Positions 16,797 to 34,630 of a DNA stretch of 64,000 nucleotides are shown here, one piece after another (position 1 is the stretch's first letter; each line of letters opens with the position of its first letter). The stretch is taken from contig JBAYFZ010000001.1 of the NCBI GenBank assembly GCA_041666915.1, forward strand, positions 354,508 through 418,507. The letters are read 5' to 3'. The translations under genes were made by a program, and so were the position numbers. The notes below the pieces were generated by a model. The model was given only the letters and a program-made list of their open reading frames with translations, did not search any database and was not told the DNA's origin. This DNA is from Minisyncoccota bacterium (lineage in GTDB: Bacteria > Patescibacteriota > Minisyncoccia > Phycocordibacterales > PALSA-1337).

Positions 16797-16797
16797 A

Positions 16798-17655: not shown

Positions 17656-17688
17656 AATAAATGGATGTTATATATTAAAATTAAATAC

Positions 17689-18306: not shown

Positions 18307-18362
18307 AGCGACTATAAAAAAACGACTAAATCCTTAGAGCCTGAAGCATACGACGAAGATAT

Positions 18363-18758: not shown

Positions 18759-18837
18759 TTGATTACAGTTATTCGAAAACTATCCAAGAATAATCTAAGC
18801 TGATTTTCATCCTTTCGTAAATTAGACTTGTCTCAAT

Positions 18838-19287: not shown

Positions 19288-19316
19288 TTTATTAAATACC
19301 CTTGATTTGTTCTTTG

Positions 19317-19790: not shown

Positions 19791-19853
19791 ATAATTTATC
19801 GTTAACGAATGATATGTCTCATCTTAGTAATCTATTCGATACTACAAATATAA

Positions 19854-20156
19854 TCATACTATATAAAACATGTTGAATAATGCTTTAGTAAAAAGATAAT
19901 ACCCAAAAATTTCAATTAGAATGTTAAATATCCAAAAAATCGGACTCAAATTTTTTTCTATCCTATATTGAATAAACATTAACATTGCAGCAACGGCCCC
20001 ACTTAATGCAAATCCGATCGGAAGATAGAAAATTGATCTAATACTCAAAAAAGTAATACCGGTTGTCCAGAATAGGATTATAGAATAAATAATAAAATAT
20101 ACAATTGCACGATAATATGAATAGTATCTGGTTTCGTATTCGTACATATTTGGCAT
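19854..20156 (-). CDS. small membrane protein
   Basis: 100 aa, 3 predicted TM helices. Confidence 0.4.
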   Translation of the reverse strand: MPNMYEYETRYYSYYRAIVYFIIYSIILFWTTGITFLSIRSIFYLPIGFALSGAVAAMLMFIQYRIEKNLSPIFWIFNILIEIFGYYLFTKALFNMFYIV

Positions 20157-20747: not shown

Positions 20748-20818
20748 AAATTTGTTTAATTATTATCTAGAAATTGATTTTTATATTACTTTTAAGTACA
20801 TTTTCAAAGCTTCACTCA

Positions 20819-21094
20819 TTACCAAGTTAACCTTAAGAAAGACAGAAATCTATAACAAATCGAAACATATCTTTTTAGAATAATTACAGATCCACAGACT
20901 CGATCATTATTTAAGTTCAAATCGGTTGCAATAGGCTTAAGCTGATTTTCAATTTTCTTCATATATTCAACATAAGCATTACCGTAGTGATTGATATTGT
21001 ATACAGAGATATTAAACCACTTAAGCTCTTTCTCCATTCTTCCTATTACCAATTCAAAATCATCAGTATAATTAACTTGATGAAAAATCAACAA
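20819..21094 (-). CDS. hypothetical protein
   Basis: 91-aa ORF. Confidence 0.3.
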   Translation of the reverse strand: MLIFHQVNYTDDFELVIGRMEKELKWFNISVYNINHYGNAYVEYMKKIENQLKPIATDLNLNNDRVCGSVIILKRYVSICYRFLSFLRLTW

Positions 21095-21126
21095 CCAATA
21101 ACCATCTTCTTGTGATATTTTTTGGT

Positions 21127-21900
21127 TTAGATTTTTATCAAGATAACCAAGATACCTCTTAAAATAAGAGAGTTCTTTTTTTGTTTATATAAAGTTTTAT
21201 TTAATTCTGCAATTTTCTTAAGAAGTTTTACTTTATTATCTTTATGTATAGATAAGATATTTTTAATATAGCCATAAGCAAAAGAGAAATTATCATCCGA
21301 AAGATATCCGTAAGTGGTTGTCTGTGTAGTTGTTTGACTAGACAAATATTCGTGGTCAATAAAAGTTTTCACAACCTTTCTTCCTACCATCATAATATCA
21401 GCGAACCCTAACATCATTGCTGTAATATCAGTATAAAATTCATTATCTTTTTCCTTGTGCAACAATGAATATAGGACGATATGTGATAATTCATGAGCCA
21501 TCACAGTTATTAGTGTCGATGGATTCTCAATACAATTTTCACTTAGTCTAATGCTTATAGGAAAATTGATCATACTCGAAGTTCCGTAGAAAGGTAAGTT
21601 TGCAGGGATAGAGACCTGAGCTGTGATACCTCCTGTACCTCTACCTCTCCAATCAGTCTTTACAAGATGAGTGCTCCGGAATCCGTCGTTTGTATTTGGA
21701 CTATATCCTTTTGGTACATACGACAAATTTACTTCAATTGGTAAACCTAGATATCCTGCAATTTCCTTTATAGCTTCTTTTATCTTTTTTGAAAGAATTA
21801 AAGATATAATTTTTTGGTGATCAACAAATTCCTTAACACCAATTGTACTTGAAAGATGATTTATTGCATTCTCTATGTATTTATTATCAACTTCTTCCAT
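21127..21900 (-). CDS. HExxH zinc metallopeptidase-like protein (possibly ImmA/IrrE-type)
   Basis: VMAHELSHIV motif with acidic residues downstream; no other homology recognised. Confidence 0.4.
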   Translation of the reverse strand: MEEVDNKYIENAINHLSSTIGVKEFVDHQKIISLILSKKIKEAIKEIAGYLGLPIEVNLSYVPKGYSPNTNDGFRSTHLVKTDWRGRGTGGITAQVSIPANLPFYGTSSMINFPISIRLSENCIENPSTLITVMAHELSHIVLYSLLHKEKDNEFYTDITAMMLGFADIMMVGRKVVKTFIDHEYLSSQTTTQTTTYGYLSDDNFSFAYGYIKNILSIHKDNKVKLLKKIAELNKTLYKQKKNSLILRGILVILIKI

Positions 21901-21986
21901 TTATAAATATAATTTAACTATTAAGCTAGAGAAGATTAATCCAAAAAAACTAAATATGTACTTATTACAAAACTTTCTTCCAATTT

Positions 21987-23039
21987 TTAATAAGCATTGA
22001 ATTGAGCAGGGTCCATATAGCTCGTCTCAGCAGTACCACCAATCACGGGATTGAGTGTAATGGTAAACTTTGAGTATTTAACGTATTGACTGTCTTCCGT
22101 TGTTGTAATATCAAAAATATCATCAAATGACTGCGAGTTAGCACTTTTTACGAAGGTCTTATTTACTGTATCCCAGTCCACCCCTTGCATAAATGCAAGC
22201 AAATATTTTCCATCCGATATGTTTGTTATGGTGTAAGTGTTCTCAGCTCTGACGTAGACTGTGAAAATCGATGTGCCGTTGCGAAGCAATTTTGCTACAG
22301 CGTCATGGCTCGTTCCGTTTTTTATTAGGAGTTGACCATCACCATCCAGATAACTAGAAACCTTCTTAAACACATAACCATTATCAAGCGAATATGGGAC
22401 GGTTAAACCTGCTTGCCTGTCCTTAAGAAATTGTTGATGTGCCGTCGTTGTTGAATTAAATACTTCGTCAGACTTGTTAAGCCATGTACAATAATCCGGT
22501 TCAAATAGGCTTATAAGGCCACCAGCGCTACATGAGGCTTTAATTTTAGCTTGGGTAGCTTTCATGGCGTCACACTTTGCTCTCGTGGTAGGGTCTAATT
22601 TGTCCGTAGGTGTGTCTATGTGAAGACACTCTACTTCCTTACCAAGTTGGTCAATTTTCGTTGTGTCGATATGTTGAATCGGAGTTATGAATGAAGGTAA
22701 TGACGTTGGTTGTGGCAATGGCATTTTGGTTCCTCCGGTGTTTGAATCACTATCGCCAGAATAAGCCCAAGCAATAAAAATTATCACCGCAACGACTACG
22801 ACACATTTATTAAAGATAGCTTTTTTAAGAAACCTTGTGGCCATAGCGGTATAGTCTTTTACCAGTCTGATTTTTGCTTCGTAACCTTTATAAAACTTGT
22901 CGCTCTCGACTGTTTCTTTTACAGCACTAAAATGATTAGATGCATTATTTGCTATGCTTTCCACTAAAGAAAGCAGGCAGTACGGACATTTAATCGCCTT
23001 ATCATGAATCTCTTTTTTACAAAATGGGCATTTTTTCAT
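21987..23039 (-). CDS. membrane-anchored protein with N-terminal zinc ribbon and extracytoplasmic domain
   Basis: CPFCKKE...CPYC, a single TM (VVVVAVIIFIAWAY), then a ~250-aa domain. Confidence 0.4.
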   Translation of the reverse strand: MKKCPFCKKEIHDKAIKCPYCLLSLVESIANNASNHFSAVKETVESDKFYKGYEAKIRLVKDYTAMATRFLKKAIFNKCVVVVAVIIFIAWAYSGDSDSNTGGTKMPLPQPTSLPSFITPIQHIDTTKIDQLGKEVECLHIDTPTDKLDPTTRAKCDAMKATQAKIKASCSAGGLISLFEPDYCTWLNKSDEVFNSTTTAHQQFLKDRQAGLTVPYSLDNGYVFKKVSSYLDGDGQLLIKNGTSHDAVAKLLRNGTSIFTVYVRAENTYTITNISDGKYLLAFMQGVDWDTVNKTFVKSANSQSFDDIFDITTTEDSQYVKYSKFTITLNPVIGGTAETSYMDPAQFNAY

Positions 23040-23057
23040 GTTATTTGATTACACTTC

Positions 23058-23552
23058 CTAGTAAATTATCTGCTTGCAAGTTGAACATTTAACATCTTCG
23101 TATAGGTTTTTATTGACTGGCACCCTTAGTCGCTGGCCGCATTTTCTACAAATTACGATCTCTTTTTCTGCAAAGTACTTAATCTTTATAATTTTTATGA
23201 AAATAATTAGTCCTACTAGTGAAATCGGTATAGTAAACAATAAGATTTTTGGATCGCTAGCTCCTGTAAATATCTGAAATAAAATAAACGGTATAGCTAG
23301 ATAAAGATAAAAATATGTTTTAAAAACATGAGCTCTATCCAGGTTGACCTTCTGTTTCTGATATTGAGTCTTGCTACTGTTATAAAATCCTAAAAAGAAT
23401 CGATCTGTCTTACCTTCCCATAATCGATAAGAATCAAGTGGTATGATTGGAAGAAAAAATATAATAAACCACTCGGTGGCCACATATGAACCATCAGGTT
23501 TCTTATTACTCGCACCATAATATATGGTGCCTATACCATTGAATGAAGACAT
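23058..23552 (-). CDS. membrane protein with C-terminal zinc ribbon
   Basis: TM helices plus CRKCGQ...CSTCKQ. Confidence 0.4.
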   Translation of the reverse strand: MSSFNGIGTIYYGASNKKPDGSYVATEWFIIFFLPIIPLDSYRLWEGKTDRFFLGFYNSSKTQYQKQKVNLDRAHVFKTYFYLYLAIPFILFQIFTGASDPKILLFTIPISLVGLIIFIKIIKIKYFAEKEIVICRKCGQRLRVPVNKNLYEDVKCSTCKQIIY

Positions 23553-24144
23553 TTTAAATCATTTTACAAACACAAAAAGCCCACCACGGGTAGAGGCCGA
23601 AGCCCCTCATATCAGTTTCCCGATATGGCAGATTAAGGCGACCCCATGATGGGTTCTTTGTCCTTAATCTGACTAACTTTTCACCATGCCAGAAATCACT
23701 TATTTCTGGTTTAGGCTACTTATACATATTCAGTTGTATGTTTAGGATACCACTCTATTACGTCCATGCCAATATTCAGCTCTTTAACAATCGTGTAATG
23801 CATGTCTCCCTTCACCACATAATAGTGTATAATAAAGCTATGAAATACGCTTATCTATCCATAATAATTCTTTTAATAATCAGTGGTTTTTATTGGTTTC
23901 AGTTGCGACCAAGCCAAATTAAAAAACATTGTTTTTATACCAGTGCAACATTAAAAGAAAATTTATCGCCTCATGCCGATTTAACTTCTCCAGATAGCTT
24001 TAGTCTCGCCAGCGTAGAAGCACAATCCAATTACCATTCTTGTTTAACCTCGAATGGACTTTAAGGTTGAACTCGAAGAAAAAATGTGATGTAAGTCACT
24101 ATCCACAGTTTTTTTATTTCTATTTGGTTGATATAATGTTGCTC

Positions 24145-24705
24145 AACATTCAATAGTGAATGTTGAAATTGACAACACATGCTCGCTTGCCTGAACAACA
24201 AGCACACAAGAGCGACCGGTTATCCCCGAGATTCCTTAGACGGGTACTCTAGCAGGGACAGTGATGTCCCATGCTAGCGTTCACTAGTAATGGGAACATC
24301 GGATTTATTTTCGAAGTTCTTGTTAAGAGTGCCGGTCTAAGGAATTTTTGCGTATTGTTTCGCCTCATCTGTACATCACGAATTGATGTGCGGATTCTGG
24401 CGGAATTAATACCGCAGAAGCAGAGTGTCGATAGCTCTTATCTGGCAGAAACGCCAGGAAGTTTGATTTTGCAATACCATGCAGAAAACAAACAAAAGTC
24501 AGATCTGCTTTCCGTCAAAAGACGGTCTCAAGTTGATCTGCAACGCCGTTGATAGGTACGGTGACGGACAGTTGTGGGAAACCATCTCTGGACGTTGGAT
24601 TCCTATCGATATAGAAAATGCACCGGCTTTTACCAGTGCATTTTCAAGAAAATCCTGACGTGGTTTTTCTTACACAACCGCTCCCGCAAGGGAGCTTTTG
24701 TGTTT
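24145..24705 (+). ncRNA. candidate structured ncRNA / non-coding transcription unit of unknown class
   Basis: Extended -10 promoter TGATATAAT at 24129-24137. The region has elevated GC and many hairpins (e.g. CAACATTC-AATAG-GAATGTTG; GAAAATGCACCGG...CCAGTGCATTTTC). Terminator GCTCCCGCAAGGGAGCTTTTGTGTTT at 24680-24705. The only ORF (24271-24552) has no RBS and low-complexity content. Confidence 0.4.
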
Positions 24706-24847
24706 GAGTTATTATATTATAGACTACGAACGGCTTGTCAAGGAAGCATAAAACCTGTGTATAGCAATTTTATGATTAACAAATAATAAAAAGTCAAACT
24801 TAAAACTGCCCTATTGGCTTTAAATATGTACAAAAACGCGTCTCAAA

Positions 24848-25387
24848 ATGTCACAATGGACTAAAGATTTTATTGGCATTATACTATTGGTTATGATCAA
24901 TGAAATACAAACGGAAAAAGATTTCTCTGAACAACTTATTAAAGGAAAAATTACTGAGCTTGTCTTTGAACGAATGTTTCGTACGGTTGGACACTTTACT
25001 GTGATACCTTTCGGTTATGAAAATACTTTGCCCGAAATAGTCCAGTATCAACACTTGGCAAAATATCCTCAAGTCTTTGATACAATCAAAACAGCTCCCG
25101 ACTTTGCAATTGTATCTCATGACAGAAGTGAGGTTTTTCTAGTTGAAGTCAAGTACCGAACAGGTCATACCGATAAAGCTATACTAGAGCTAGCAGGAGA
25201 AATTCAAAAGAAATGGAAACTTGTTAGATTGTTTCTTGCCACACCTTCTGGTTTCTATTTTGATTCCTGTAGTAACATCATTAAAAATGAAGGTAAAATA
25301 TCCACTCTTGGACCACAATGGGTAAATGATGAGGTACAAAAGGAATACCTAGAACTATTAAATCAATTTATCATTAGACCTAACTAA
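24848..25387 (+). CDS. PD-(D/E)xK nuclease-fold protein
   Basis: PDFAIVSHDRSEVFLVEVKYR contains D...EVK spaced as in restriction-endonuclease-like folds. Confidence 0.5.
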   Translation: MSQWTKDFIGIILLVMINEIQTEKDFSEQLIKGKITELVFERMFRTVGHFTVIPFGYENTLPEIVQYQHLAKYPQVFDTIKTAPDFAIVSHDRSEVFLVEVKYRTGHTDKAILELAGEIQKKWKLVRLFLATPSGFYFDSCSNIIKNEGKISTLGPQWVNDEVQKEYLELLNQFIIRPN

Positions 25388-25437
25388 AAATATCTACCGT
25401 TTATTACGGGGACTTTTCTATTTTAACAAGGCAAAAA

Positions 25438-27318
25438 CTAATCGTTCTTACTCTTAGATGTAACCCAACTTTCTTCAAGATCAACGGTACCACTATTTGG
25501 TCGTCTCGATTTCTCAAGAAGCTCAATATCGACTTTAACCGGTATATCCGAAGCTAATCCAGCAACAAAACAACTTCCCACAGAAAGAATTGGAATGCTT
25601 TGAAATGACAATTTATCAAGATAAGCGACAGCTTTTTCTACTGCGCTTATATCATTATCATTTATAAGTCTATGAATAAAATAGTTATGTAGCTGAGAAA
25701 TTATTGTGGCTGATATATCATAAGGCCTTTGGCTTGCAATAGTTAGAAAGACACCAAATTTTCTTCCCTCCTTTATAATTTCTTCAAAAGTCTCTAGACG
25801 ATAATCCTTCCATGTCTCACTTTCTCGCTGAGACATTGTGGAGAGAATATTATGAGCCTCATCTATAATTATATGTAGCGATTTTTTGTCAGACTCCTTT
25901 TTGTTTTCGTACAACTGTTTCGCAATTATTAGCGGAACAATCTTCTTCATCTCAATATTTACATCTCTTAAAGAAATGACGGATAGATTCTTTGATTCGG
26001 GGCTATCTTTAATATCAATCAGTTTCTCCAACATATCAAACTTTCTGAACATTCTGCCCACTAATGGTCCAATATGTTCTTGGTTTGAATATCCCTTTAC
26101 GATTTCATGAAAATAATTAAAAACGATTTTCAATTTCAGCTTACTAAATTCGTCAGCCTTAAAGACCAGTGCATCCACAGATGTTTTAAGTCGAGTGTCG
26201 TATATAGGGTTTTTATTGTTGTAATTATTGCCATCATTTGATGCGTCCCAGTAATACTCCTTTGTAAGGGAGTGATAGTGTAGTTTATTTTCAATATCTT
26301 TTTTAAGTGCAATTACATCATCCTTCTTCTCATCTGTAACAAGATTTATCAGGTCTCTAAAAAGCTCGATGATTACCCCTTCTCTAAGGTTTCCATCCTT
26401 CTTATCAATAACACCAGTACACAGATCTTCGATACTTGTAATAGCTCGAGTATTAAAAGTCGTATTATCATCAAGATAATCATTACGTATAACTCTATCG
26501 AGAAAGGGCTTTTGTGTTTTTTCTGTTGCCTCCAGTAAAACAGACAGGATTTCTGTCTTGTGAATACTTTCTCTAGGAAGCGGGTATTTTTTCTTACTGC
26601 CTTTTTTACCAGTTGATAGCTCATAGACCACTTTGTCTTTCGTAATCATTTCATCACCAGTATATTCACCATTGAAATCAATTATCACAAAATCTGATTT
26701 GGTTTTGAAATCACCTTGATCTGAGAATGTTTTAAAAAGCTCAGTGTATATTTTCGCAAGTGTATTTGATTTACCGCTTCCGGTGTTGCCGAAAATACCA
26801 ATATGGCTGGCAAACAATTTATTAACACCTAGCTTTATCTTTTGTGACGGCTCTTCTGTTAGACTGCCGACCGCAATAGTTTTGTCACCCTTTTTGTAAA
26901 ACTGGTGAAGTACATTAAATTCATCTCTATTTAGCAAATAGCACTCATTATCGATCAAGGGCATTTCTTTTATACCCTGCTTTACACAATTACCTTCAAA
27001 ATGACCAAAGAGAGACAATTGCAAAACCCTATTTATCCTAGTCTCTTCTTTGTTGTATTCTTTATTAAAAAACTTTTCTTCAGAGGTAAATTCGCCCTCA
27101 ACTTTTCCAATAATACTCACGAAACCCTTTACTATCTTTACATAGCTACCTACAGACACATTTTTTACAGTTTTTCCTTCGAATAAAATATGCGAATGAT
27201 TTTTATTTTTATTTAGTTTTACCCTAACAATTCTACCGTCAACTGAGAGAACGCGGCCAATTATAAAAATCGACTCTTGCATCAATTCTTGCTCAATTGT
27301 TTTACTCTTTGTCTCCAT
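25438..27318 (-). CDS. herA: HerA-like (DUF87) ATPase, partner of SIR2 in the SIR2-HerA antiphage system
   Basis: N-terminal HAS-barrel-like segment, Walker A GNTGSGKSN, Walker B HIIIDEAHN, and the GRKFGVFLTIASQRP motif typical of HerA/FtsK-like ATPases. Confidence 0.8.
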   Translation of the reverse strand: METKSKTIEQELMQESIFIIGRVLSVDGRIVRVKLNKNKNHSHILFEGKTVKNVSVGSYVKIVKGFVSIIGKVEGEFTSEEKFFNKEYNKEETRINRVLQLSLFGHFEGNCVKQGIKEMPLIDNECYLLNRDEFNVLHQFYKKGDKTIAVGSLTEEPSQKIKLGVNKLFASHIGIFGNTGSGKSNTLAKIYTELFKTFSDQGDFKTKSDFVIIDFNGEYTGDEMITKDKVVYELSTGKKGSKKKYPLPRESIHKTEILSVLLEATEKTQKPFLDRVIRNDYLDDNTTFNTRAITSIEDLCTGVIDKKDGNLREGVIIELFRDLINLVTDEKKDDVIALKKDIENKLHYHSLTKEYYWDASNDGNNYNNKNPIYDTRLKTSVDALVFKADEFSKLKLKIVFNYFHEIVKGYSNQEHIGPLVGRMFRKFDMLEKLIDIKDSPESKNLSVISLRDVNIEMKKIVPLIIAKQLYENKKESDKKSLHIIIDEAHNILSTMSQRESETWKDYRLETFEEIIKEGRKFGVFLTIASQRPYDISATIISQLHNYFIHRLINDNDISAVEKAVAYLDKLSFQSIPILSVGSCFVAGLASDIPVKVDIELLEKSRRPNSGTVDLEESWVTSKSKND

Positions 27319-28321
27319 GATTCATGCTATTTAAGACTTCACTGAGGACCGACTGATTGATTTTTTCTAGGTTAAATCTACTTGCTGGCTCATCATCTGA
27401 GGGTTCAATGATTTCAATATTTGAATACCTCAATTTTCCAAGTTGCATTTTTGTCTTCATACTTGAATCCGTATCCTTTCCGTGGCAAAACACATAAATT
27501 TTTAGTGTAGGATTCGATTCTGCTGCTCTTATCGTTATTTCTCGAATATGTTCATCTTCCATAGAGAATCCTAGAACAAAAAGAACGGTATTTTCTTTTT
27601 CCAGTTCACCTGAATACATTCTGAGCAATTCGTAGTAAGTTACATCGATTACCGTTTCTTCAAGTTTTTTCCTTTCTGGATTTACTATTGCTAATCTTTC
27701 ATAACCAGCCTCAAAAGCTCGTTGTCCCTTTTTTAACAAAGATTTATCGAAATGTTCTAGCTTTGAAAAATGAATTTTATTTTCAACCTTTTCCCATGTC
27801 AAAGATCCGTGGACTTTCATAAGATTAAACAAAGGTATTTCTGAAACATTCTCATAGTGCAAACTTCTTTTTTGTATTGATTTTTTAAAATTACTCAGGC
27901 TAAAAGTAGCATTTAATCGACCATTGAAACCATCGTTATATTCAAGACTACTATCTTCCAAAACAGTTTCCATCAGTATATCTATGTTTGTAGTAAATAT
28001 GTTAACTTGCTTACTGAGAATTGTATTCTTGCGCTTCAAAAGTATACGTGCAAGCATTTCAAAAAAATCCTTATACGCCTTACATGTTGTATCAAAATCG
28101 CCTTTTTTAGCTATTGATTTACTAATAATTTCAAGATTAGGAATTATTACTCTCTCAAAATACTCCTTCTTTATCTTTACCCGCTCAGATTTCTTTTTTT
28201 CGCTAGATAAACGAGTCTCAATATCACCAAGTATTGGCAAAAACGGTGTTGAAAGACCAGCCCCAACTAGGACATTTATGTGCGAGCTCTGTATGGCCTC
28301 TTTTATTTCTTGAGGTTTCAT
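27302..28321 (-). CDS. SIR2-family (DHS-like NAD-binding) protein, SIR2-HerA antiphage system
   Basis: VLVGAGLS (GAGxS), IFTTNIDIL (TTNYD-like) and MKVHGS (HGS) motifs; overlaps the herA start by 17 nt. Confidence 0.8.
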   Translation of the reverse strand: MKPQEIKEAIQSSHINVLVGAGLSTPFLPILGDIETRLSSEKKKSERVKIKKEYFERVIIPNLEIISKSIAKKGDFDTTCKAYKDFFEMLARILLKRKNTILSKQVNIFTTNIDILMETVLEDSSLEYNDGFNGRLNATFSLSNFKKSIQKRSLHYENVSEIPLFNLMKVHGSLTWEKVENKIHFSKLEHFDKSLLKKGQRAFEAGYERLAIVNPERKKLEETVIDVTYYELLRMYSGELEKENTVLFVLGFSMEDEHIREITIRAAESNPTLKIYVFCHGKDTDSSMKTKMQLGKLRYSNIEIIEPSDDEPASRFNLEKINQSVLSEVLNSMNHGDKE

Positions 28322-28650
28322 AAATTTTCCAAAGAATAAATATCAAAGGCGACCTCATCGTATGGATGAATTTTTTTGACTGCTTTAACAAGCTCAGAAA
28401 GATTTTCACGAGCGCACACGGTCTCAATTCTTTCTTCGGCTACTTCTTCAAATTTACCAACTTCGCCGATATGCGGATCCGCTCCCGCATCGGGTCTGAA
28501 CCGACCAGTTCCCTTCGAGGAGAAGGTGCAGAAACTGTAATTACCGATCTTACCAGCTCCGGCCTTACCCATAGCTTCACGAACCACATCGGTATGGGTT
28601 TCTGGTACGAAAACAACAATTTTTACATTCCTACTTGCAACTGATTTCAT
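28318..28650 (-). CDS. small CutA/PII-like fold protein (family uncertain)
   Basis: 110 aa; the VVFVPETH...AGAGKIGNY...HPYDEVAFD pattern resembles small PII/CutA-like or Nif3-insert-like proteins; stop overlaps the SIR2 start (ATGA). Confidence 0.35.
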   Translation of the reverse strand: MKSVASRNVKIVVFVPETHTDVVREAMGKAGAGKIGNYSFCTFSSKGTGRFRPDAGADPHIGEVGKFEEVAEERIETVCARENLSELVKAVKKIHPYDEVAFDIYSLENL

Positions 28651-28738
28651 TATGTGGTCAACTTTAGCACTTTTTATAGAAAAAATATACTAATCTATGA
28701 TGCCAAAAAGTAAACAAAAGTAAACATTTTTAATACGT

Positions 28739-29149
28739 TTATTTATCATCTTGCGGCCTCAAGAATCGGTAATTACCAATCGTCTTAAGAAGTCTATTAG
28801 CTTGCTGTTTTGCACTCTTGGGACTATAACCAGCAATAATTGCTGCTTGTGTAGCGTTACAAGAAGTGAGATACGCTTCCAGAAACCTTAACCTCCGCAT
28901 ATCCTTGGCACACAAAATTGTACCTTGATCATAAAGAGCGCCAACTAGTTCATATATTAGGCGCCTGTATGGTCTATAAAAGATGATTCTGGTGAGCAAC
29001 ACAGCCTCTTCTGTTGAAAATTTAGGGAATCTTCCGGTACGCCCATACTTTTGTCGAAGCAGTTTCTCGTCGAATACCATACCTGCCCAGATCATAACCA
29101 TATCCCGTGTATTCATTGTTCTCTTACTTTGTATATTCTTGTCGCTCAT
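28739..29149 (-). CDS. phage terminase small subunit-like protein (orphan)
   Basis: C-terminal AYLTSCNATQAAIIAGYSPKSAKQQANRLL matches the Terminase_2/P27-type HTH signature; no large subunit nearby. Confidence 0.6.
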   Translation of the reverse strand: MSDKNIQSKRTMNTRDMVMIWAGMVFDEKLLRQKYGRTGRFPKFSTEEAVLLTRIIFYRPYRRLIYELVGALYDQGTILCAKDMRRLRFLEAYLTSCNATQAAIIAGYSPKSAKQQANRLLKTIGNYRFLRPQDDK

Positions 29150-29248
29150 ATATTTATATGCACGCAGGCTTAGCTATACAATCCATCGTTCGAAAGTCGT
29201 AAGCCAGCGCGAGCCAATATTGACTTTTATGATATACTTTTAAACATT

Positions 29249-29635
29249 ATGTTAGAAGGTCTAGAAGACACAATCACAGAGACCAACTTGTCAGCCGAGA
29301 GCAATGATATTTTTGAATTTAAAGATGAAGATGGTGATAAAAGTATCGGAGTTATCGTCGGAGAATATATCGTATTCGCAACAGAACAAATCGACGGAAA
29401 GTGGACTGTAAATTTTGCTTTAAAGGATGAATTAAAAGGTAGTTCATGGATGGATACTCTTACAAACAAAGGAGCGTTTTCTACGATAATTGAGCTTAAG
29501 CCAGCTTTTGAAAAAATAATTAATCAATTGGAAAAAGAGGGTAAAGATTGGTTTTGTGCTTGTGACGAAAGAAGAGCAAAGCTCTATGCCAGATACATCC
29601 CTAAAGAAAAAATTCAGATTGTCGATAAAACTTGA
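29249..29635 (+). CDS. hypothetical protein
   Basis: 128-aa ORF. Confidence 0.35.
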   Translation: MLEGLEDTITETNLSAESNDIFEFKDEDGDKSIGVIVGEYIVFATEQIDGKWTVNFALKDELKGSSWMDTLTNKGAFSTIIELKPAFEKIINQLEKEGKDWFCACDERRAKLYARYIPKEKIQIVDKT

Positions 29636-29743
29636 TTTAAACAAAATAATTCCTTGTCCACTTTTTGCCAGTTAACAATTCTGAACTCGTCCAACAGTTC
29701 TATTCATACTTGACAAACTCTACGGATATGATAAGATACCATA

Positions 29744-30096
29744 GTCGACGATAAGTGAGCTGGTTGTCGATACGGCCGAAAGGCAATGTAAATTAGCTCT
29801 CGGGGTTTGTATCCGTCAACGGGAGATACCCCTAAACGAACAGTTGATTTGGTACATCAAAAAAGTCGGCACTTGAGCATAAGCTCAGCCCATCATCGGC
29901 GCAAGCTCGTTAGTTATCTGATCCTGCGAGTAGCACCGGCAGAGGGCACTTTGCCGACACAAAAGAAAGAGTGGCACGATGTGCATGTCTAGCTTGCACG
30001 CCACAGGTTTGGTGGTACTTAGTCTCCACCCGATGAAGTACGCGACTTCATGAGTCAATTCGCCCGGAACCACCACTTTGGTTCCGGGCTTTTTTA
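29744..30096 (+). ncRNA. candidate structured ncRNA of unknown class
   Basis: Promoter TTGACA-16-TAAGAT at 29710-29737. A ~350-nt GC-rich ORF-free region ends in the terminator GCCCGGAACCACCACTTTGGTTCCGGGCTTTTTT. The small ORFs inside (29807-29992 and 29885-30076) look spurious. Confidence 0.4.
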
Positions 30097-30100
30097 TTTC

Positions 30101-30190
30101 CTCATGTCCTTCATAAACAACGACTGATTGTAAATTCCCTACATGTATTCCCTATCTGAGAATATGGTTATAATAATCTCATGTTCGGGG
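30101..30190. repeat. ~90-bp repeat R copy 1 (CTCATxxCTTTCATAAACAA...GTATTCCCTATCTGAGAATRTGGTTATRATAATCTCA)
   Basis: ~85% identical to copies at 32141-32230 and 34367-34455; each follows a rho-independent terminator. Confidence 0.75.
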
Positions 30191-30201
30191 ATGGCATACA
30201 A

Positions 30202-30897
30202 TTATTTTTCGTTATCGTGCATTACTTTCAATAAAAAGATGGTATCAGTCTTTAACTTTGCACGAGCAGAATCCTTCTGTGAATCAGTGATCAATTCACC
30301 AAGCCCATCTAAAATATGTTTATTATCCATTGACTCCAACATGGCAATACATTTCTCTAATGCTTCCTTATATGGAACTCCCGATCTTTCTTCCACAATC
30401 TTGCGGTTAATAGGCCAGTTATTTTTAGCAAAATACTGAACATCAAAAATATCACGACTTGTCTTACCGATTCGCTCAAACATTGCCATCAACTTATGTG
30501 CAAACATGTCTTCTTGGACCATTACGAGCATTGAGATGCCGAGATATGTTTTCATTTCATACTTTGAGCCAAGTTGGCGACGATTCACCTCAACCTTAAT
30601 TTTCTGAGCATTAGTATCATAAGAGATAACATTCTTTAAATTGAATCTCTGCATGTATGAATCAGTAATTTTGCCGTAATTACTTACAATCTTGTTTATT
30701 TTCTCAAAAACGTCCTTTTCTTTTGTCTCATCCAACAAATCAAGATCCAAATCTACAGAGTTTCTGGGCAAATCATAAAACATCATAGCTGCGGTACCAC
30801 CTTTGAATCCCAAATAAGGTGCAATAGAGGTATCAGAATAGATATCTTTTAAGATCTGTAACAAGATATTCTTATGTTTTGAGTAATCTAATGTCAT
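30202..30897 (-). CDS. abiEii: AbiEii/AbiGii-family nucleotidyltransferase toxin (type IV TA / abortive infection)
   Basis: LGFKGGTAAMMFYDLPRNSVDLDLDL matches the DUF1814/AbiEii signature. Confidence 0.75.
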   Translation of the reverse strand: MTLDYSKHKNILLQILKDIYSDTSIAPYLGFKGGTAAMMFYDLPRNSVDLDLDLLDETKEKDVFEKINKIVSNYGKITDSYMQRFNLKNVISYDTNAQKIKVEVNRRQLGSKYEMKTYLGISMLVMVQEDMFAHKLMAMFERIGKTSRDIFDVQYFAKNNWPINRKIVEERSGVPYKEALEKCIAMLESMDNKHILDGLGELITDSQKDSARAKLKTDTIFLLKVMHDNEK

Positions 30898-31478
30898 ATA
30901 ATTTTTTGATATTCTTTTACCTTCTTTTCTAAACGCTTGTTGTTATAAATTGGTAATATTTCCATCACCTTATTCCAATCCAATGAACGCAAATTATCAA
31001 AGTGATAATCTTTGCTTACATATACACGGTCTAAAAAGGCACGTTCACGTGATGCGGTGGCAATACCACTTGTATGTTCTATTCCCATTGAATTACTCAA
31101 AACGTAATCTTTCATCCGAACGAAAGTAATTTTTTGATCACCAATTGTAATTTCTCGATTCATGTATGATGCAACGAAAATATTTCCGTAATATTGGAAA
31201 TTTACCCCTTCACGAGTCAAAATGGTTTCAAAGCTAATATATGATGGGGTGTAGATACGAGTTGCTAATTCGAAACGATTGTAATTTTTATCTTTAGCAT
31301 AAAATCCTCTGTGAACTCTGATCAACTTTTCCGCTTTTACATAATAGTTCAAACGGACCCTAGCCGCTGATTCATTTTGTTCCCCCCACATCAAAACCAC
31401 ATCCTTTGTTGAAAAGATGGTCTGGGGTGATCTTAATAAGATCTCCAAAAATTCGCCTTTTGTGGGTTTATTATCCAT
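30894..31478 (-). CDS. abiEi: AbiEi-family antitoxin / transcriptional regulator
   Basis: KLIRVHRGFYA motif typical of AbiEi N-terminal domains; stop overlaps the abiEii start by 4 nt. Confidence 0.65.
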   Translation of the reverse strand: MDNKPTKGEFLEILLRSPQTIFSTKDVVLMWGEQNESAARVRLNYYVKAEKLIRVHRGFYAKDKNYNRFELATRIYTPSYISFETILTREGVNFQYYGNIFVASYMNREITIGDQKITFVRMKDYVLSNSMGIEHTSGIATASRERAFLDRVYVSKDYHFDNLRSLDWNKVMEILPIYNNKRLEKKVKEYQKII

Positions 31479-31595
31479 ATTGTTGCTGGAAGTTAGTTTT
31501 AACCTAACATCCAGTCACAATATTAGCATATTCTAAGAAAATCAACAATATGTGCACTAGATTAGTACTTCAGGCTAGAATTCAATAGATATATA

Positions 31596-31624
31596 TTGAC
31601 AGTATATCCTACATATGCTATAAT
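31596..31624 (+). promoter_or_regulatory. sigma-70-type promoter TTGACA-17-TATAAT
   Basis: Perfect -35 and -10 hexamers with 17-bp spacer, 39 bp upstream of the 31663 ORF. Confidence 0.6.
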
Positions 31625-31662
31625 CTACACGGAACAACAGAAACATTAACAAAAGGAACTTT

Positions 31663-32085
31663 GTGAAAACAATATTAGTCGGTATTTTCTTCATGAGCCA
31701 ATTGATTTTGGCTTTGGGACAAAATGATCCCACCGTACGGTATCCGGCCATCAACAATAATGTGTTCACGAATATGATTTCGTGGAACGCTCTTATGACC
31801 GACACTTATGCGTGGCCGATCATAGCAACCGAGGTCGTCGTCGATCAGCCAATACCTTCGAAGGTGTCATTGGAAATCTTCAAGATCCAGAATGACCCGG
31901 ATTACGGCAACGGCACCCTGGTAACCTCTACCAAGACGAACGAGGTGTGTCTAGTCCAGTCATCGGTTGACCTGAAAAACTGGACAATGGAGACGAATTC
32001 TCCGCTTGTCATAGCAGGCTATACCGCCTACTATTTCTATCCGGAAGATGGAGCGAAAGTAAAATTTTACCGGACACGCAATTGA
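31663..32085 (+). CDS. secreted hypothetical protein
   Basis: Signal peptide MKTILVGIFFMSQLILALG; 140 aa; followed by a terminator and R copy 2. Confidence 0.5.
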   Translation: MKTILVGIFFMSQLILALGQNDPTVRYPAINNNVFTNMISWNALMTDTYAWPIIATEVVVDQPIPSKVSLEIFKIQNDPDYGNGTLVTSTKTNEVCLVQSSVDLKNWTMETNSPLVIAGYTAYYFYPEDGAKVKFYRTRN

Positions 32086-32140
32086 GCGTAACCCGCCCGA
32101 ACAGAGAAACCCTCCGTTCACGGCGGGTTTTCTTTTTATA

Positions 32141-32230
32141 TTCTCATCACTTTCATAAACAACAACCGATTGTGCATCCCCTACATGTATTCCCTATCTG
32201 AGAATGTGGTTATGATAATCTCATGTTCAG
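32141..32230. repeat. ~90-bp repeat R copy 2
   Basis: See copy 1. It is preceded by the hairpin CCCGCCCGAACAGAGAAACCCTCCGTTCACGGCGGG+T-tract, itself reused at 38338. Confidence 0.75.
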
Positions 32231-32248
32231 GAAGCATAAGATTGTAAT

Positions 32249-32956
32249 TTAATCTTTCGGTTCATCCCAAAACTTATATTTCTTATTTTGGACTTCAACT
32301 AGTTTTTCTAACTTATTCCAATTTTGCTTTTTATTGCCTTCGTCAAACATCTTATTTACTTCTTCTCCACTTATACCAGCATACATACCAGATAAAACGT
32401 ATCTAACACCTTGATTATCATTTGGATTTAATTTGAGCAACAACCTATACAATTCAATAGCTTTTTCTTTTTCTCCTTCATCTCCATATATATCTGCCCT
32501 ATATTGAATAGCTCTCAAATAGGCTCTATTTTCTAAAACTCCCCACTCTATCTTTTTGGGCCATTTTGGAAACTTTTTCAAGACTTTATCAAAAGCTATC
32601 TTAATATTTTCTAGCGCCTTATTTTTATCCTTCGGACGTCCGTAAACTGAAACCAACCCAACATACGTCTGTACATAATCAGAATCCATTTCTTTTGCTT
32701 TTAGTAGCATCTTTTCGGCAGAATCATAATCGTCAACATTCAGTGCGTCCATGGCATCATAGTAAAGATCATTTTTATTTTGTACTCTCATAGCCATATG
32801 TCCATTCTTAATATTCTGCTTGTCAAAAGCTTCCATGAGACCATCAAATGAATCTGCTTTCCCATTTTTCATCGCCTGACAAATAGCACAATCATCAAAA
32901 CCCTTCCATTCGGCATTTTTCTTTTTTGTTTTTGGCTTTGATTTTGTCTTTTTCAT
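32249..32956 (-). CDS. hypothetical helical (TPR-like) protein
   Basis: 235 aa, Lys-rich N-terminus, repeated helical pairs. Confidence 0.4.
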   Translation of the reverse strand: MKKTKSKPKTKKKNAEWKGFDDCAICQAMKNGKADSFDGLMEAFDKQNIKNGHMAMRVQNKNDLYYDAMDALNVDDYDSAEKMLLKAKEMDSDYVQTYVGLVSVYGRPKDKNKALENIKIAFDKVLKKFPKWPKKIEWGVLENRAYLRAIQYRADIYGDEGEKEKAIELYRLLLKLNPNDNQGVRYVLSGMYAGISGEEVNKMFDEGNKKQNWNKLEKLVEVQNKKYKFWDEPKD

Positions 32957-33111
32957 ACAATTATTTTTCGTTTCTATGCCTTTTAATAAAAACTTTATTA
33001 GACCTAAATATTAGTATATTTTAAGAAAAACGACAATATAAATCTTGTGTGTACAAATGTTGCAGTGGATGTATAATAGTGTTAACTTATCAATCTAATC
33101 TCATCAATGCT

Positions 33112-33399
33112 ATGGTCGACAATCAAAACAATGAGGAACTCATAAAAAAAGCTGACATCCAAAAAATCGCTGAAAAAGGAAAGACTATATATGAGCAAAT
33201 AAAAGTGATCTATGATCCGAAGGAAAAGGGTAAGTTTTTGGCTATTGATGTTGATAGCGAGAAGGTTTATCTTGGAAAGACTAGTGCTGAGGCGGTAGTA
33301 CTCGCAAAACAAAATCATCCTAACAAAGTCTTCTATGTAGTAAAAATCGGTTTTGATGTCGCAGAAACGATGGCAAAGTCATTTCTGGAATACAAATAA
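33112..33399 (+). CDS. small hypothetical protein, translationally coupled to the downstream aspartic protease
   Basis: Start taken at the internal ATG at 33112, because a TGTATAAT -10 element lies inside the longer track ORF. Stop TAA at 33397-33399, one nt before the next ATG. Confidence 0.4.
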   Translation: MVDNQNNEELIKKADIQKIAEKGKTIYEQIKVIYDPKEKGKFLAIDVDSEKVYLGKTSAEAVVLAKQNHPNKVFYVVKIGFDVAETMAKSFLEYK

Positions 33400-33400
33400 T

Positions 33401-33766
33401 ATGATCAAAGGCGTCTTTACTGAAAACATGCCGCTTTTTCCGGTACTTGTAGCTTGGGGTCAATCCGTCCAGGCTCCTTTTGTAATTTTGGACACAGGAT
33501 TTACCGGTGATTTACAAGTCACACCAGAGATAGCAAAAGAATTGGGACTGAAAGTCACAGGTGTCATAAATGTTCGTATAGCCAACGGACAAGTCGTGGA
33601 GGTCCCCACGGCTTTGGCTTTCGCCGTGATGGAAGGCATGAAAAATTACATCGATGTTTTGATATCTGACAGTATGCCGCTCGCTGGTATTAGCTTTCTT
33701 TCAAAATTTAACTATAAGGCTATAGTTGACTGTAAATACAAAACGGTCAATCTTGAAAGGGTTTAG
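33401..33766 (+). CDS. retropepsin-like (clan AA) aspartic protease
   Basis: ILDTGFTGDL contains the D-T-G active-site triad in a hydrophobic context; size ~120 aa is typical of single-domain bacterial retropepsin-like proteases. Confidence 0.55.
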   Translation: MIKGVFTENMPLFPVLVAWGQSVQAPFVILDTGFTGDLQVTPEIAKELGLKVTGVINVRIANGQVVEVPTALAFAVMEGMKNYIDVLISDSMPLAGISFLSKFNYKAIVDCKYKTVNLERV

Positions 33767-33864
33767 TTGTATGGAACTTAGATAATCTATAACATACTCC
33801 AAATCAACCTAAAAATAATTGACACATGTTTCTAACTATGATTAGATAAAATCATAGTAGTTTT

Positions 33865-34311
33865 TTGACATACATGGATAGTGGCCTTAAAGAAGCCCTG
33901 GCAGTCCAAACAATCTGCCTAAATAAAGTAATTATGATAAACAAGAAACTGTCACGGACGAAAATGAAAACTATGAAATTCAAGAAAATACTAATATGGT
34001 CATTTATCAATGGCCAACCTCACAAACTATTAACAAAAGAGGAATCAAAAATCGCAAACACTATGGGCGTCCTTCATACACTTTTTCCTGGAATCAACTA
34101 TTACTCAACCTCTGGTTTCCACACTGCTGTAAGCACATGTGTTCAACCTGTTCTGGAGAAACTTTTCCCAGAACTTATCGGCACAAGAAACGATAGTATG
34201 ACTAGGGAGGATAAAGTGGAGATCAGTGTATTTCTTCCATCAAAAGGATATGAGTGGCAAGATAGCAAAGTATGGAGACGAAAGTTCGAAAAACTCTTGG
34301 CTACCAAATAA
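33865..34311 (+). CDS. hypothetical protein
   Basis: 148-aa ORF followed by the terminator CCCGCCCGAAC...GTTCGCGGCGGGTTTCTTTTTT and R copy 3. Confidence 0.35.
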   Translation: MTYMDSGLKEALAVQTICLNKVIMINKKLSRTKMKTMKFKKILIWSFINGQPHKLLTKEESKIANTMGVLHTLFPGINYYSTSGFHTAVSTCVQPVLEKLFPELIGTRNDSMTREDKVEISVFLPSKGYEWQDSKVWRRKFEKLLATK

Positions 34312-34366
34312 ATCCCCCGCCCGAACACGAAGCCCATCGCTTCAGTTCGCGGCGGGTTTCTTTTTT

Positions 34367-34455
34367 CTTCTCATCGCTTTCATAAACAATAACTGATTGT
34401 ACATCCTCTATATGTATTCCCTGTCTGAGAATGTGGTTATGATAATCTCAGGTTC
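34367..34455. repeat. ~90-bp repeat R copy 3
   Basis: See copy 1. Confidence 0.75.
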
Positions 34456-34630
34456 GGAAAGTGTTGCACTTCAGAGTGGAATTTTAGGAGCCAAGTTGAC
34501 AACATTGATTAAAAGATGTAATTTAAGTCTAAATTGCTCTAACAAAATTAAAACGAAGGTAAATTATGAAATCAGGAAGAAACGTCGCACTTGCGAACAA
34601 TGATAGATTTTTTCTCTTCATCGTATTCAA

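What the first reader, a model, noticed from the sequence alone, without database searches (positions are those of the whole stretch)
30101..34455. Three copies of a ~90-bp repeat (R) each placed right after a rho-independent terminator, interleaved with AbiE and other accessory genes
R1 (30101-30190), R2 (32141-32230) and R3 (34367-34455) are ~85% identical. They contain a conserved TGAGAATRTGGTTATRATAATCTCA palindromic core with an embedded TATAAT-like hexamer. Each follows a terminator hairpin, and two of those hairpins share the CCCGCCCGAAC...GGCGGG stem that is also reused at 38338. The repeats partition this 4.4-kb stretch into cassette-like units. Those units hold AbiEi/AbiEii, a secreted protein, a TPR-like protein, and the small-protein/retropepsin pair. 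Possible roles are a small RNA gene, a recombination or attC-like boundary, or a shared regulatory site.
Basis: seen in the sequence. Interest (0 to 1): 0.55.

Follow-up and report, generated by a model that had tools for sequence, protein, structure and literature searches.

The report
Displaced integrase-gene tails marking cassette boundaries
The three ~100-bp repeats are the cut-off last 33 codons of a serine-integrase gene, left at the far end of a mobile element whose attachment site lies inside its own integrase gene; in these ultra-small (CPR) bacteria such tails pile up as boundaries of swappable gene cassettes next to tRNA genes.

Summary
There are three same-strand copies of a ~100-nt repeat (85-88% identical), each after a terminator. 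The core occurs 3 times against 0 expected.

The repeat is not an sRNA, promoter or attC. It has no Rfam match and no fold. The palindrome is not conserved in relatives.

Forty-eight distinct copies from CPR/Patescibacteria align without a gap. They carry an open, 3-periodic frame on the opposite strand. That frame is the conserved C-terminal tail of a family of large serine recombinases (LSRs).

In three independent systems (window/tRNA-Asn, L040/tRNA-His, L048/tRNA-Lys) the integrated LSR gene runs into the reverse complement of a tRNA 3' end. It loses homology to tail-bearing copies exactly there. The tail (R) lies kilobases away, in the predicted orientation and reading phase. So attP lies inside the LSR gene, and integration swaps the tail for tRNA-encoded codons.

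In relatives, the sequence after R equals the sequence after the intact tRNA-Lys. Arrays reach 10 R copies, and cassette blocks between close genomes break at R edges.

The closest analogue is the archaeal SSV-type "suicidal" tyrosine integrases. The window's copies carry an in-frame TAG and may be relics.

Identity confidence is about 0.8. How the arrays grow and what the tail does are inferred.

The parts
30092..30192 (+). R1. Read on the minus strand it is a displaced LSR tail (..IPEHEIIITIFSDREYM*GIYNQSLFMKDMRK*). Its right edge (~30192/30193) is the recombination junction. It is the most likely attR partner of LSR-1.
   Evidence: AbiE-module homology to L030 starts at 30193.
32134..32244 (+). 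R2. Displaced LSR tail (MLPEHEIIITTFSDREYM*GMHNRLLFMKVMRI*). The junction is ~5 nt from the TPR gene's stop codon.
34361..34461 (+). R3. Displaced LSR tail (..LSEPEIIITTFSDREYI*RMYNQLLFMKAMRR..). It is the outermost copy, so it is the candidate outer end of the composite island.
12362..13933 (-). LSR-1, a large serine recombinase of 523 aa. Its last ~9 codons (..LLRRQDSNL*) are encoded by the reverse complement of the tRNA-Asn 3' end. This is the integrated, tail-less form.
   Evidence: Pfam Resolvase + Recombinase + Zn_ribbon_recom. Homology to LSR531 and to the L048 LSR. C-terminus homologous to the tail-bearing fragment P0033.
12069..12389 (+). tRNA-Asn(GTT) with a 248-nt group I intron in the anticodon loop. 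Its 3' end is the attB-side half of attL, with the junction at about 12385-12390.
   Evidence: ARAGORN with introns. Rfam RF00028 at 45.9 bits, E 1.7e-10.
12390..30192 (.). Proposed integrated LSR-1 element. Cargo: 160-aa ORF, tRNA-Arg(TCT) 15021-15094, second LSR 15438-16796, ParB-like 16798-17655, LOOT RNA 23592-23717, HerA 25438-27318, SIR2 27302-28321, small terminase 28739-29149.
   Evidence: The same make-up (LSR + LOOT + small terminase + R) is seen in L034 and L040; L026 has the LSR, LOOT and R.
30193..32133 (.). Unit between R1 and R2: AbiEii 30202-30897(-), AbiEi 30894-31478(-), 140-aa ORF 31663-32085(+) and its terminator.
32245..34360 (.). Unit between R2 and R3: TPR protein 32249-32956(-), ORFs 33049-33399, 33353-33766 and 33865-34311 (+), and a terminator.
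30062..30089 (+). Intrinsic terminator of the + strand unit that converges on the R1 tail. The equivalent hairpins lie at about 32092-32133 and 34318-34360.

Best explanation
Each R is the last ~100 bp of a large-serine-recombinase (LSR, serine integrase) gene. Read on the minus strand, it is about 33 codons of a conserved C-terminal tail plus the stop codon.

In this family of Patescibacteria mobile elements, the attachment site attP lies inside the integrase ORF, about 35 codons before its end. The target attB is the extreme 3' end of a tRNA gene.

Integration therefore splits the gene. The integrase body stays at one end of the element and now reads into the reverse complement of the tRNA for 4-9 codons. 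The tail is carried to the other end, where it abuts the old tRNA-downstream flank. R plus junction is therefore attR.

The nucleotide-invariant stretch GAGATTATTATAACCAT lies 10-27 nt from the junction. It is most likely the integrase-binding half-site, which would explain why it shows almost no synonymous change. The rest of R is conserved as protein.

In the window, LSR-1 (12362-13933, minus strand) runs into tRNA-Asn (12069-12389). R1-R3 lie 16-20 kb away in the predicted orientation and reading phase.

Shown: the split architecture, the junction identity, the orientation and phase, and the cassette breakpoints at R. Inferred: R1 is LSR-1's own tail; R2 and R3 are tails left by earlier or tandem elements whose integrase bodies were lost, so that their cargo was 'captured'; extra R copies can serve as alternative attR sites; the tail swap regulates the integrase.
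For: (1) Coding signal. Among the 48 distinct copies (45 outside the window), all align without a gap over ~100 nt. Minus-strand frame 1 has 1 stop in the 45 non-window copies, against 65-175 in the other frames. pN/pS is 0.36. Codon-position entropy is 0.65/0.46/1.02, permutation p = 0.0003.

(2) What the peptide is. An exhaustive profile search of 1.84 billion proteins finds only 64 hits. Almost all are short ORFs with the motif at their C-terminus. Several are LSR C-terminal fragments that end in the motif (P0062, P0027, P0033, P0035).

(3) L040. LSR531 and the tail-bearing copy P0062 share the 15 nt GACGATGAATTGGGT next to the junction and diverge immediately after it. LSR531 continues as the reverse complement of tRNA-His (..RDLNPD*); P0062 continues as the tail.

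(4) Window. LSR-1 ends ..HPA LLRRQDSNL* on the reverse complement of tRNA-Asn. R of the window type ends ..GGGGAGC and the tRNA ends ..CCGGAGC. The codon CTC is in phase on both sides.

(5) Prediction tested in a new genome, L048. tRNA-Lys(+) is overlapped by the LSR(-) 3' end (..KSL|VSAR*). Two R copies lie on the + strand downstream. The phase matches again (GTG TCC GCT against TTG TCC CCA).

(6) The 100 nt after R cluster with the 100 nt after intact tRNA-Lys, starting at the same junction, in three flank families.

(7) The geometry LSR(-)...R(+) holds in the window, L026, L034, L040 and L048.

(8) Cassette dynamics. L032 has 10 R copies in 14 kb. The L048/L032 homology block (95.7% over 1312 nt) ends at the outer edges of two R copies. 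L008 and L010 diverge right after R.

(9) The tail is 69% identical between lineages whose LSR bodies are 28% identical.
Against: All three window copies have an in-frame TAG after ..EYM/I, and TAG is a normal stop here (16 of 58 ORFs). The local tails are therefore shortened or dead.

R1 and R2 are followed by the 3' ends of AbiEii and the TPR gene, not by recognisable host flank or integrase remnants.

No excised circle and no empty tRNA-Asn site was found. All contigs carrying the neighbouring gene have the same arrangement.

Serine integrases are not known to recombine attP with attL or attR (PMC3783163). Arrays of up to 10 R copies without integrase remnants therefore need an extra process such as decay, homologous recombination or relaxed half-site use.

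Dyad symmetry between the proposed P and P' arms is weak: 12 of 33 matches, with a GTTAT(T/A)A motif in both arms.

Similarity between the R 3' end and the tRNA 3' end is marginal statistically (p 0.01-0.3).

No full-length tail-bearing LSR (the free attP form) was recovered from the databases.
Confidence: 0.8

Rival explanations
1. The identity is the same (LSR tails), but the window's R1-R3 are inert debris. They would be fossils of decayed elements at an old integration hotspot. They would have no present role as recombination sites, and the units between them would be fixed.
For: An in-frame TAG is shared by all three copies, which are 12-15% diverged. Substitutions after the TAG look relaxed. 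No integrase remnants lie next to R2 or R3. All sampled contigs of this population have the same arrangement.
Against: No indel has accumulated in any copy. The putative binding stretch is almost intact (ATT ATC ATA ACC ACA in R2/R3; identical to consensus in R1). LSR-1 looks intact, with all three domains. Close relatives show rapid gain and loss of cassettes exactly at R edges.
Confidence: 0.4
2. R is a stand-alone small protein gene of 33-45 aa (for example a recombination directionality factor or an addiction peptide) that is copied along with the cassettes. The peptide itself would be the functional unit.
For: The frame is conserved and under purifying selection. Several copies have ATG or TTG right at the junction (MLPEHE.., MCPSQE..). 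There is a weak PHROG hit to a recombination directionality factor (phrog_6474, E 0.014). The AlphaFold model is a two-helix hairpin, mean pLDDT 76.
Against: The start codon is not conserved, and many copies have none. Many copies sit directly behind a terminator hairpin, with no room for a promoter. The motif is contiguous with LSR C-terminal regions in several ORFs. All three window copies are interrupted by a stop. There is no Pfam, NCBIfam or PDB match.
Confidence: 0.12
3. R is a non-coding functional element on the + strand: a promoter or operator, or a small RNA gene using the TATAAT.
For: A TATAAT-like hexamer is invariant. R lies in intergenic positions after terminators.
Against: There is no Rfam family. 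Folding z-scores run from -0.55 to 0.00 on the + strand. No -35 partner is found. The gene after R is convergent about half the time. In the large arrays R lies between a stop codon and a terminator. The 3-periodic substitution pattern belongs to the other strand.
Confidence: 0.03
4. R is the recombination site of an integron-like or tyrosine-recombinase system (attC-like, or a tRNA-derived att direct repeat). It would be unrelated to the LSR.
For: Same-orientation arrays occur with 0.7-2.8 kb cassettes holding GNAT, NUDIX and toxin-antitoxin genes. Direct 14-15 nt copies of the tRNA-Lys 3' end exist near some arrays.
Against: There is no hairpin and no R''/R' boxes. No tyrosine integrase appears in any annotated neighbourhood. 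R is not homologous to the tRNA (z -1.0 to 0.8). The LSR link is direct at DNA level.
Confidence: 0.04

Closest known systems
SSV-type (type I, 'suicidal') integrases of archaeal viruses and plasmids (She et al. 2001/2004; Badel et al. 2020, PMC7253208)
   Same: attP lies inside the integrase ORF. The target is a tRNA gene. Integration partitions the gene, so an Int fragment sits at each end of the integrated element. Remnants accumulate at tRNA genes ('gene capture'). The att site is translated as part of the protein.
   Different: Those are tyrosine recombinases and are described as 'so far restricted to archaea' (PMC7253208). The split there yields two inactive pseudogenes. Here the enzyme is a serine recombinase in bacteria (Patescibacteria). 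The split is ~35 codons from the end, so all catalytic and DNA-binding domains stay in one piece and only a short conserved tail is exchanged for tRNA-encoded residues.
Large serine integrases of phages and integrative elements (phiC31, Bxb1, A118, SPbeta)
   Same: The domain set is Resolvase + Recombinase + zinc ribbon. The integrase gene is at one end of the element. Identity at the crossover is very short. The arms around the junction are quasi-symmetric.
   Different: In the characterised systems attP lies outside the int ORF (own knowledge, not checked exhaustively). [quoted passage not shown] No conserved detachable C-terminal tail is described for them.
Integration-dependent immunity of mycobacteriophages (Broussard et al. 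2013; own knowledge)
   Same: attP lies inside a phage gene near its 3' end, so integration changes the protein's C-terminus and thereby its activity.
   Different: There the split gene is the repressor and the recombinase is a tyrosine integrase. The removed tail is a degradation tag.
Chromosomal integron cassette arrays (attC repeats, e.g. Vibrio VCRs)
   Same: A ~100-nt repeat in one orientation follows each short promoter-bearing cassette of accessory genes. Cassette content differs sharply between close relatives.
   Different: There is no attC hairpin or boxes, no IntI/attI platform, and a different recombinase class. The repeat is a gene fragment.

Membership tests
Integron attC site | An imperfect inverted repeat that folds as a single-strand hairpin with extrahelical bases | tested here: not met
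   No inverted repeat within R. DNA/RNA folds are no better than shuffles: z from -0.55 to 0.00 on + and -0.48 to -2.15 on -.
Integron attC site | R'' (RYYYAAC) and R' (GTTRRRY) boxes at the two ends | tested here: not met
   By inspection of the 35-sequence alignment, neither consensus is present at the ends. GTTC.GG at the 3' end has C where R is required.
Integron attC site | An IntI tyrosine integrase with attI and Pc at the head of the array | tested here: not met
   No Phage_integrase hit among the ORFs scanned in the window or in the annotated loci with arrays.
Large serine recombinase attachment site (attR = P' arm + crossover + B' arm) | An LSR gene (Resolvase, Recombinase, zinc ribbon) within the same element | tested here: met
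   LSR-1 at 12362-13933 has all three Pfam domains. LSRs are present in L026, L034, L040 and L048.
Large serine recombinase attachment site (attR = P' arm + crossover + B' arm) | Hybrid-site logic: attL = target-left + element, attR = element + target-right, with the same crossover point | tested here: met
   The LSR 3' end switches to the reverse complement of the tRNA at the point where tail-bearing copies continue as R. Sequence after R equals sequence after intact tRNA-Lys in three flank families. The right-hand flank could not be checked for the window itself.
Large serine recombinase attachment site (attR = P' arm + crossover + B' arm) | Quasi-palindromic half-sites about 20-25 bp either side of a central dinucleotide | tested here: inconclusive
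   GTTAT(T/A)A / GGTTA motifs occur at matching distance in both arms, but only 12-14 of 33 positions match.
Large serine recombinase attachment site (attR = P' arm + crossover + B' arm) | Recombination by the cognate integrase | not testable with these tools
   This needs in vitro or in vivo recombination, or read-level detection of attP/attB junctions.
SSV-type 'suicidal' integrase system | attP lies within the integrase ORF, so integration partitions the gene | tested here: met
   The reading phase is preserved across the junction in the window and in L048.
SSV-type 'suicidal' integrase system | The integrase is a tyrosine recombinase of the SSV family | tested here: not met
   The enzyme is a serine recombinase.
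SSV-type 'suicidal' integrase system | Both halves are inactive pseudogenes after integration | tested here: not met
   The N-terminal part keeps 94-99% of the ORF, with all recognised domains. Activity itself was not tested.
Described small RNA / cis-regulatory RNA family | A match to a curated covariance model, or a conserved structure | tested here: not met
   Rfam at gathering and E-value thresholds. No fold.
MITE / IS-derived repeat | Terminal inverted repeats and target-site duplication, with dispersed copies | tested here: not met
   No TIR within R. Copies are clustered in arrays, not dispersed: 3 in 4.4 kb of a 64-kb window, 10 in 14 kb of L032.

The most novel reading that the evidence does not exclude
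Patescibacteria carry a family of serine integrases that are built as a self-rewiring switch. Because attP sits inside the ORF, integration replaces a strongly conserved 33-aa C-terminal tail with a few tRNA-encoded residues. This would set recombination directionality without, or together with, a separate directionality factor; the detached tail might act in trans.

In the same reading, every leftover tail (R) remains a usable attR. The integrase could then excise and re-insert variable stretches of neighbouring cassettes. This would amount to an integron-like gene-capture and shuffling system run by a serine recombinase at tRNA genes.
Probability: 0.3. Interest if true: 0.85.

Novelty: new variant of a known kind. 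Interest (0 to 1): 0.72.

Why it matters
If right, it extends the 'attachment site inside the integrase gene' architecture in two ways. That architecture has been described as restricted to archaeal tyrosine integrases. Here it appears in bacterial serine integrases, and these integrases use tRNA genes as targets.

It offers a natural example of C-terminal remodelling of a serine integrase by its own reaction. This bears on how directionality is controlled in enzymes widely used for genome engineering.

It also explains a conspicuous, previously unannotated repeat of candidate-phyla-radiation genomes. It identifies where accessory and defence genes (AbiE, SIR2-HerA, Mrr, GNAT, NUDIX and others) are gained and lost in these tiny genomes.

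For annotation, short 'hypothetical proteins' ending in ..EIIITIxSDxxYMxGLYNxLxFIKA.. can be read as attR markers. Integrases that overlap tRNA genes can be read as the integrated form.

Tried and rejected
- Small RNA or regulatory element: rejected. No Rfam hit and no fold.
- Sigma-70 promoter in R: rejected. No -35 partner; gene orientation after R is mixed.
- attC or integron: rejected (see membership tests).
- DGR template/variable repeats: rejected. Differences between copies are not adenine-specific, and R does not lie in a target gene (by inspection).
- R as a degenerate copy of tRNA-Lys: rejected. Global alignment z is -1.0 to 0.8.
- TAG reassignment to explain the in-frame TAGs: rejected. 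TAG ends 16 of 58 long ORFs.
- The terminators before R2, R3 and 38338 as a by-product of gene duplication: rejected. The upstream proteins are not paralogues.
- The window's other recombinase (15438-16796) as R's partner: rejected. Its 3' end does not overlap a tRNA, its C-terminus is unrelated, and it is only weakly similar to LSR531.
- Searches that led nowhere: the first genome scan with a too-strict 25-mer found nothing. The viral-contig scan gave only chance matches. The peptide had no match in Pfam, NCBIfam or PDB. The search for an empty site via the neighbouring REC-like protein returned only the same arrangement.
- The two-helix AlphaFold model was not taken to fold search. A 41-residue hairpin would give meaningless matches.

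Full report
**1. The observation**

Three direct copies of a 101-nt sequence lie at 30092-30192, 32134-32234 and 34361-34461. They are 85-88% identical to the middle copy and all lie on the + strand. The 25-nt core occurs three times in the window, allowing up to three mismatches, against none in 100 shuffles.

Each copy begins a few bases after a hairpin plus T-run. The terminator module before R2 recurs at 38337-38388 at 87% identity. The proteins upstream of these terminators are not paralogues.

The units between the copies hold:
- AbiEii/AbiEi plus a 140-aa ORF;
- a TPR protein plus three small ORFs.

So the description is correct. However, the 'palindrome' is only 5+5 bases.

**2. What R is not**

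- No Rfam family matches, at gathering or permissive thresholds.
- Neither strand folds better than shuffled sequence.
- The TATAAT has no -35 partner.

**3. R is widespread in Patescibacteria and forms arrays**

A metagenome scan with the core found 11 genuine loci in peat, groundwater and lake samples. A relaxed genome scan found 16 loci. Most are annotated Patescibacteria MAGs (Paceibacteria, Taylorbacteria, Saccharibacteria); two carry no phylum label.

A profile of R then found further copies in those loci. They are always in the same orientation and spaced 0.7-2.8 kb apart. The largest array has ten copies in 14 kb on L032. Its cassettes include Maf+DUF1801, EamA, a methyltransferase, HSP20, GNAT/HAD/AAA_33, a P-type ATPase and NUDIX.

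In copies found without selecting on the core, the left arm of the 'palindrome' is not conserved, whereas ATGGTTATAATAATCTC is.

**4. R carries a reading frame on the other strand**

Thirty-five, later 48, distinct copies align without a single gap over ~100 nt. In the 45 non-window copies:
- minus-strand frame 1 has one stop, against 65-175 in the other frames;
- pN/pS is 0.36, against 0.49-1.26 in the other frames;
- codon-position entropies are 0.65/0.46/1.02 (permutation p = 0.0003).

The peptide reads ..(S/C/L)PE(Q/H)EIIITI(F/L)SDxxYMxG(L/M)YNxLxFIKA(L/M).. and stops 2-15 codons later.

All three window copies have an in-frame TAG after ..EYM/I. TAG is an ordinary stop in this genome.

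**5. The peptide is the C-terminal tail of large serine recombinases**

A word-based search found only 20 short hypothetical proteins. An exhaustive HMMER search of 1.84 billion representatives found 64 hits, almost all with the motif at their C-terminus.

Several of these are plainly C-terminal fragments of LSRs that end in the motif (P0062, P0027, P0033, P0035).

On L040, a 531-aa LSR and the degenerate copy P0062 are homologous up to ..DDELG(A/Q)Y. They share the 15 nt GACGATGAATTGGGT next to the junction and then part:
- the intact LSR continues ..RDLNPD* on the reverse complement of tRNA-His(GTG);
- P0062 continues with the tail.

Hence attP lies inside the LSR ORF, and the crossover is at the extreme 3' end of a tRNA.

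**6. The window fits the same plan**

A second recombinase that I had not first looked at, LSR-1 (12362-13933, minus strand), has Resolvase, Recombinase and zinc-ribbon domains. It ends ..HPA LLRRQDSNL*. These last codons are the reverse complement of the 3' end of a tRNA-Asn(GTT) gene at 12069-12389. That tRNA carries a 248-nt group I intron.

Supporting details:
- The C-terminal region of LSR-1 is homologous to the tail-bearing fragment P0033 (..LALHPIG|LPERGTIISIF..).
- R1-R3 lie on the + strand to the right of the minus-strand LSR-1. This is the orientation the model demands.
- The window-type R ends ..GGGGAGC and the tRNA ends ..CCGGAGC.
- The codon CTC is in phase on both sides, so joining them gives ..HPALLPEHEIIITIFSD...

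The stretch between LSR-1 and R1 holds phage-satellite-like cargo: small terminase, a ParB-like gene, LOOT RNA, SIR2-HerA and a second LSR.

**7. A prediction tested**

For the 10-copy array I predicted an LSR overlapping a tRNA upstream of the first R. The close relative L048 (its Mrr protein is 91% identical) shows exactly this:
- tRNA-Lys(+) at 4333-4406 is overlapped by the 3' end of a minus-strand LSR (..KSL|VSAR*, on the reverse complement of tRNA-Lys);
- two R copies lie on the + strand downstream;
- the phase is again preserved.

The geometry LSR(-)...R(+) holds in five independent loci: the window, L026, L034, L040 and L048.

**8. R ends at the same junction as the tRNA**

In three unrelated flank families, the 100 nt after R are homologous to the 100 nt after an intact tRNA-Lys, starting at the same base. 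This is what attR (element arm + old tRNA-downstream flank) should look like.

tRNA-Lys lies within 1-2 kb of R arrays in six loci, next to a conserved polA-PEMT cluster.

**9. Cassette dynamics**

- L048 and L032 share a block R|118-aa+HSP20|R at 95.7% identity. The homology stops at the outer edges of the two R copies. L048 has two R copies where L032 has ten.
- L008 and L010 are identical through an R and diverge immediately after it.
- Different genomes have different cassettes after the same ABC-transporter-R unit.
- In the window, the AbiE module's 70% DNA homology to a Saccharibacteria locus begins at 30193, the first base after R1.

**10. Mechanism, and how sure I am**

Identity of R as the displaced LSR tail and attR arm: about 0.8.

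The invariant GAGATTATTATAACCAT sits 10-27 nt from the junction. It is probably the integrase half-site. Both proposed arms carry a GTTAT(T/A)A motif at matching distance, but overall symmetry is weak.

The tail is far better conserved (69%) than the integrase bodies (28%). This suggests a function of its own, for example in directionality. That is inference.

How arrays without integrase remnants arise is unsettled. Serine integrases do not normally use attL or attR as targets. Serial integration with decay, homologous recombination between R copies, or excision using alternative R sites are all possible. The window's copies, with their shared TAG, may be relics (about 0.4).

**11. Comparison with what is known**

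The nearest analogue is the archaeal SSV-type 'suicidal' tyrosine integrases, whose attP lies in the int ORF and which are described as 'so far restricted to archaea' (PMC7253208). [quoted passage not shown]

I found no paper describing this architecture for serine integrases, or this repeat in CPR genomes. The library is incomplete, so prior description cannot be excluded.

I therefore rate it a new variant of a known kind.

Noticed in passing
window 12069-12389 (+): tRNA-Asn(GTT) interrupted in the anticodon loop by a 248-nt group I intron (Rfam RF00028 at 45.9 bits, just under the gathering score of 50). Default ARAGORN and the Rfam gathering run missed this gene.
   Followed up: partly
window 23592-23717 (-); L026 3751-3868; L034 8937-9060; L040 13209-13334: LOOT RNA (RF03000, 79-85 bits) is present in the LSR/R elements of four of the five loci with that geometry (the window, L026, L034, L040). 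L048 was not scanned with Rfam. In the window, L034 and L040 it lies with a small-terminase gene. This orphan RNA motif may therefore be a component of this family of mobile elements.
   Followed up: partly
window 15438-16796 (-), 15021-15094 (-), 16798-17655 (-): A second, different large serine recombinase (452 aa) lies just upstream of tRNA-Arg(TCT) and next to a ParB-like gene, inside the proposed LSR-1 element. It may be a nested element. Its 3' end does not overlap a tRNA.
   Followed up: partly
window 361-496, 1646-1806, 10021-10177, 54774-54897, 59157-59280, 60138-60261: Six intergenic inverted pairs of a REP-like palindrome, TGTCATTCCCGCGAAGGCGGGAATCCAGGAT (ATTCCC-N8-GGGAAT, reminiscent of Neisseria dRS3/NIME units).
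   Followed up: no
window 43306-43346, 47799-47839, 53390-53430: A further small repeat, AATACCCCCTCCCCCCTAGGGGGTATCAAGAC: two direct copies at 95% identity and one rearranged copy.
   Followed up: no
window 32090-32141 and 38337-38388: A 52-nt terminator module is duplicated at 87% identity behind unrelated genes. Only the first copy is followed by R, so the terminator behaves as a separate portable module.
   Followed up: partly
window 29640-30090: About 450 nt without an ORF between a 128-aa gene and R1, ending in the strongest terminator of the region. It could be a non-coding RNA. Only sub-threshold Rfam hits to its terminator end.
   Followed up: partly
L019 3150-3343; L024 3540-3728; the B-type flanks listed: Downstream of tRNA-Lys in Saccharibacteria lies a ~190-nt unit. 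It comprises a terminator hairpin, an inverted copy of the tRNA 3' end interrupted by a hairpin whose sequence differs between copies while its pairing is kept, and a direct 14-15 nt copy of the tRNA 3' end. It may be a structured element or the footprint of another integrating element.
   Followed up: partly
L032, L021, L024 cassette starts (flanks): Cassettes start with TTTCTG(A/G)TATAAT followed 6-8 nt later by ATG. That is an extended -10 promoter with an essentially leaderless mRNA.
   Followed up: no
window 30193-31517 vs L030 1100-2457: The AbiEi/AbiEii module is 70% identical in DNA (71-77% in protein) between this Paceibacteria-like genome and a Saccharibacteria MAG. This points to recent lateral movement of the toxin-antitoxin module between CPR classes.
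   Followed up: partly
window 25438-28321 (-): A HerA (DUF87) and SIR2_2 gene pair overlaps by 17 nt. It looks like a SIR2-HerA anti-phage system carried as cargo of the element, next to a small terminase.
   Followed up: no
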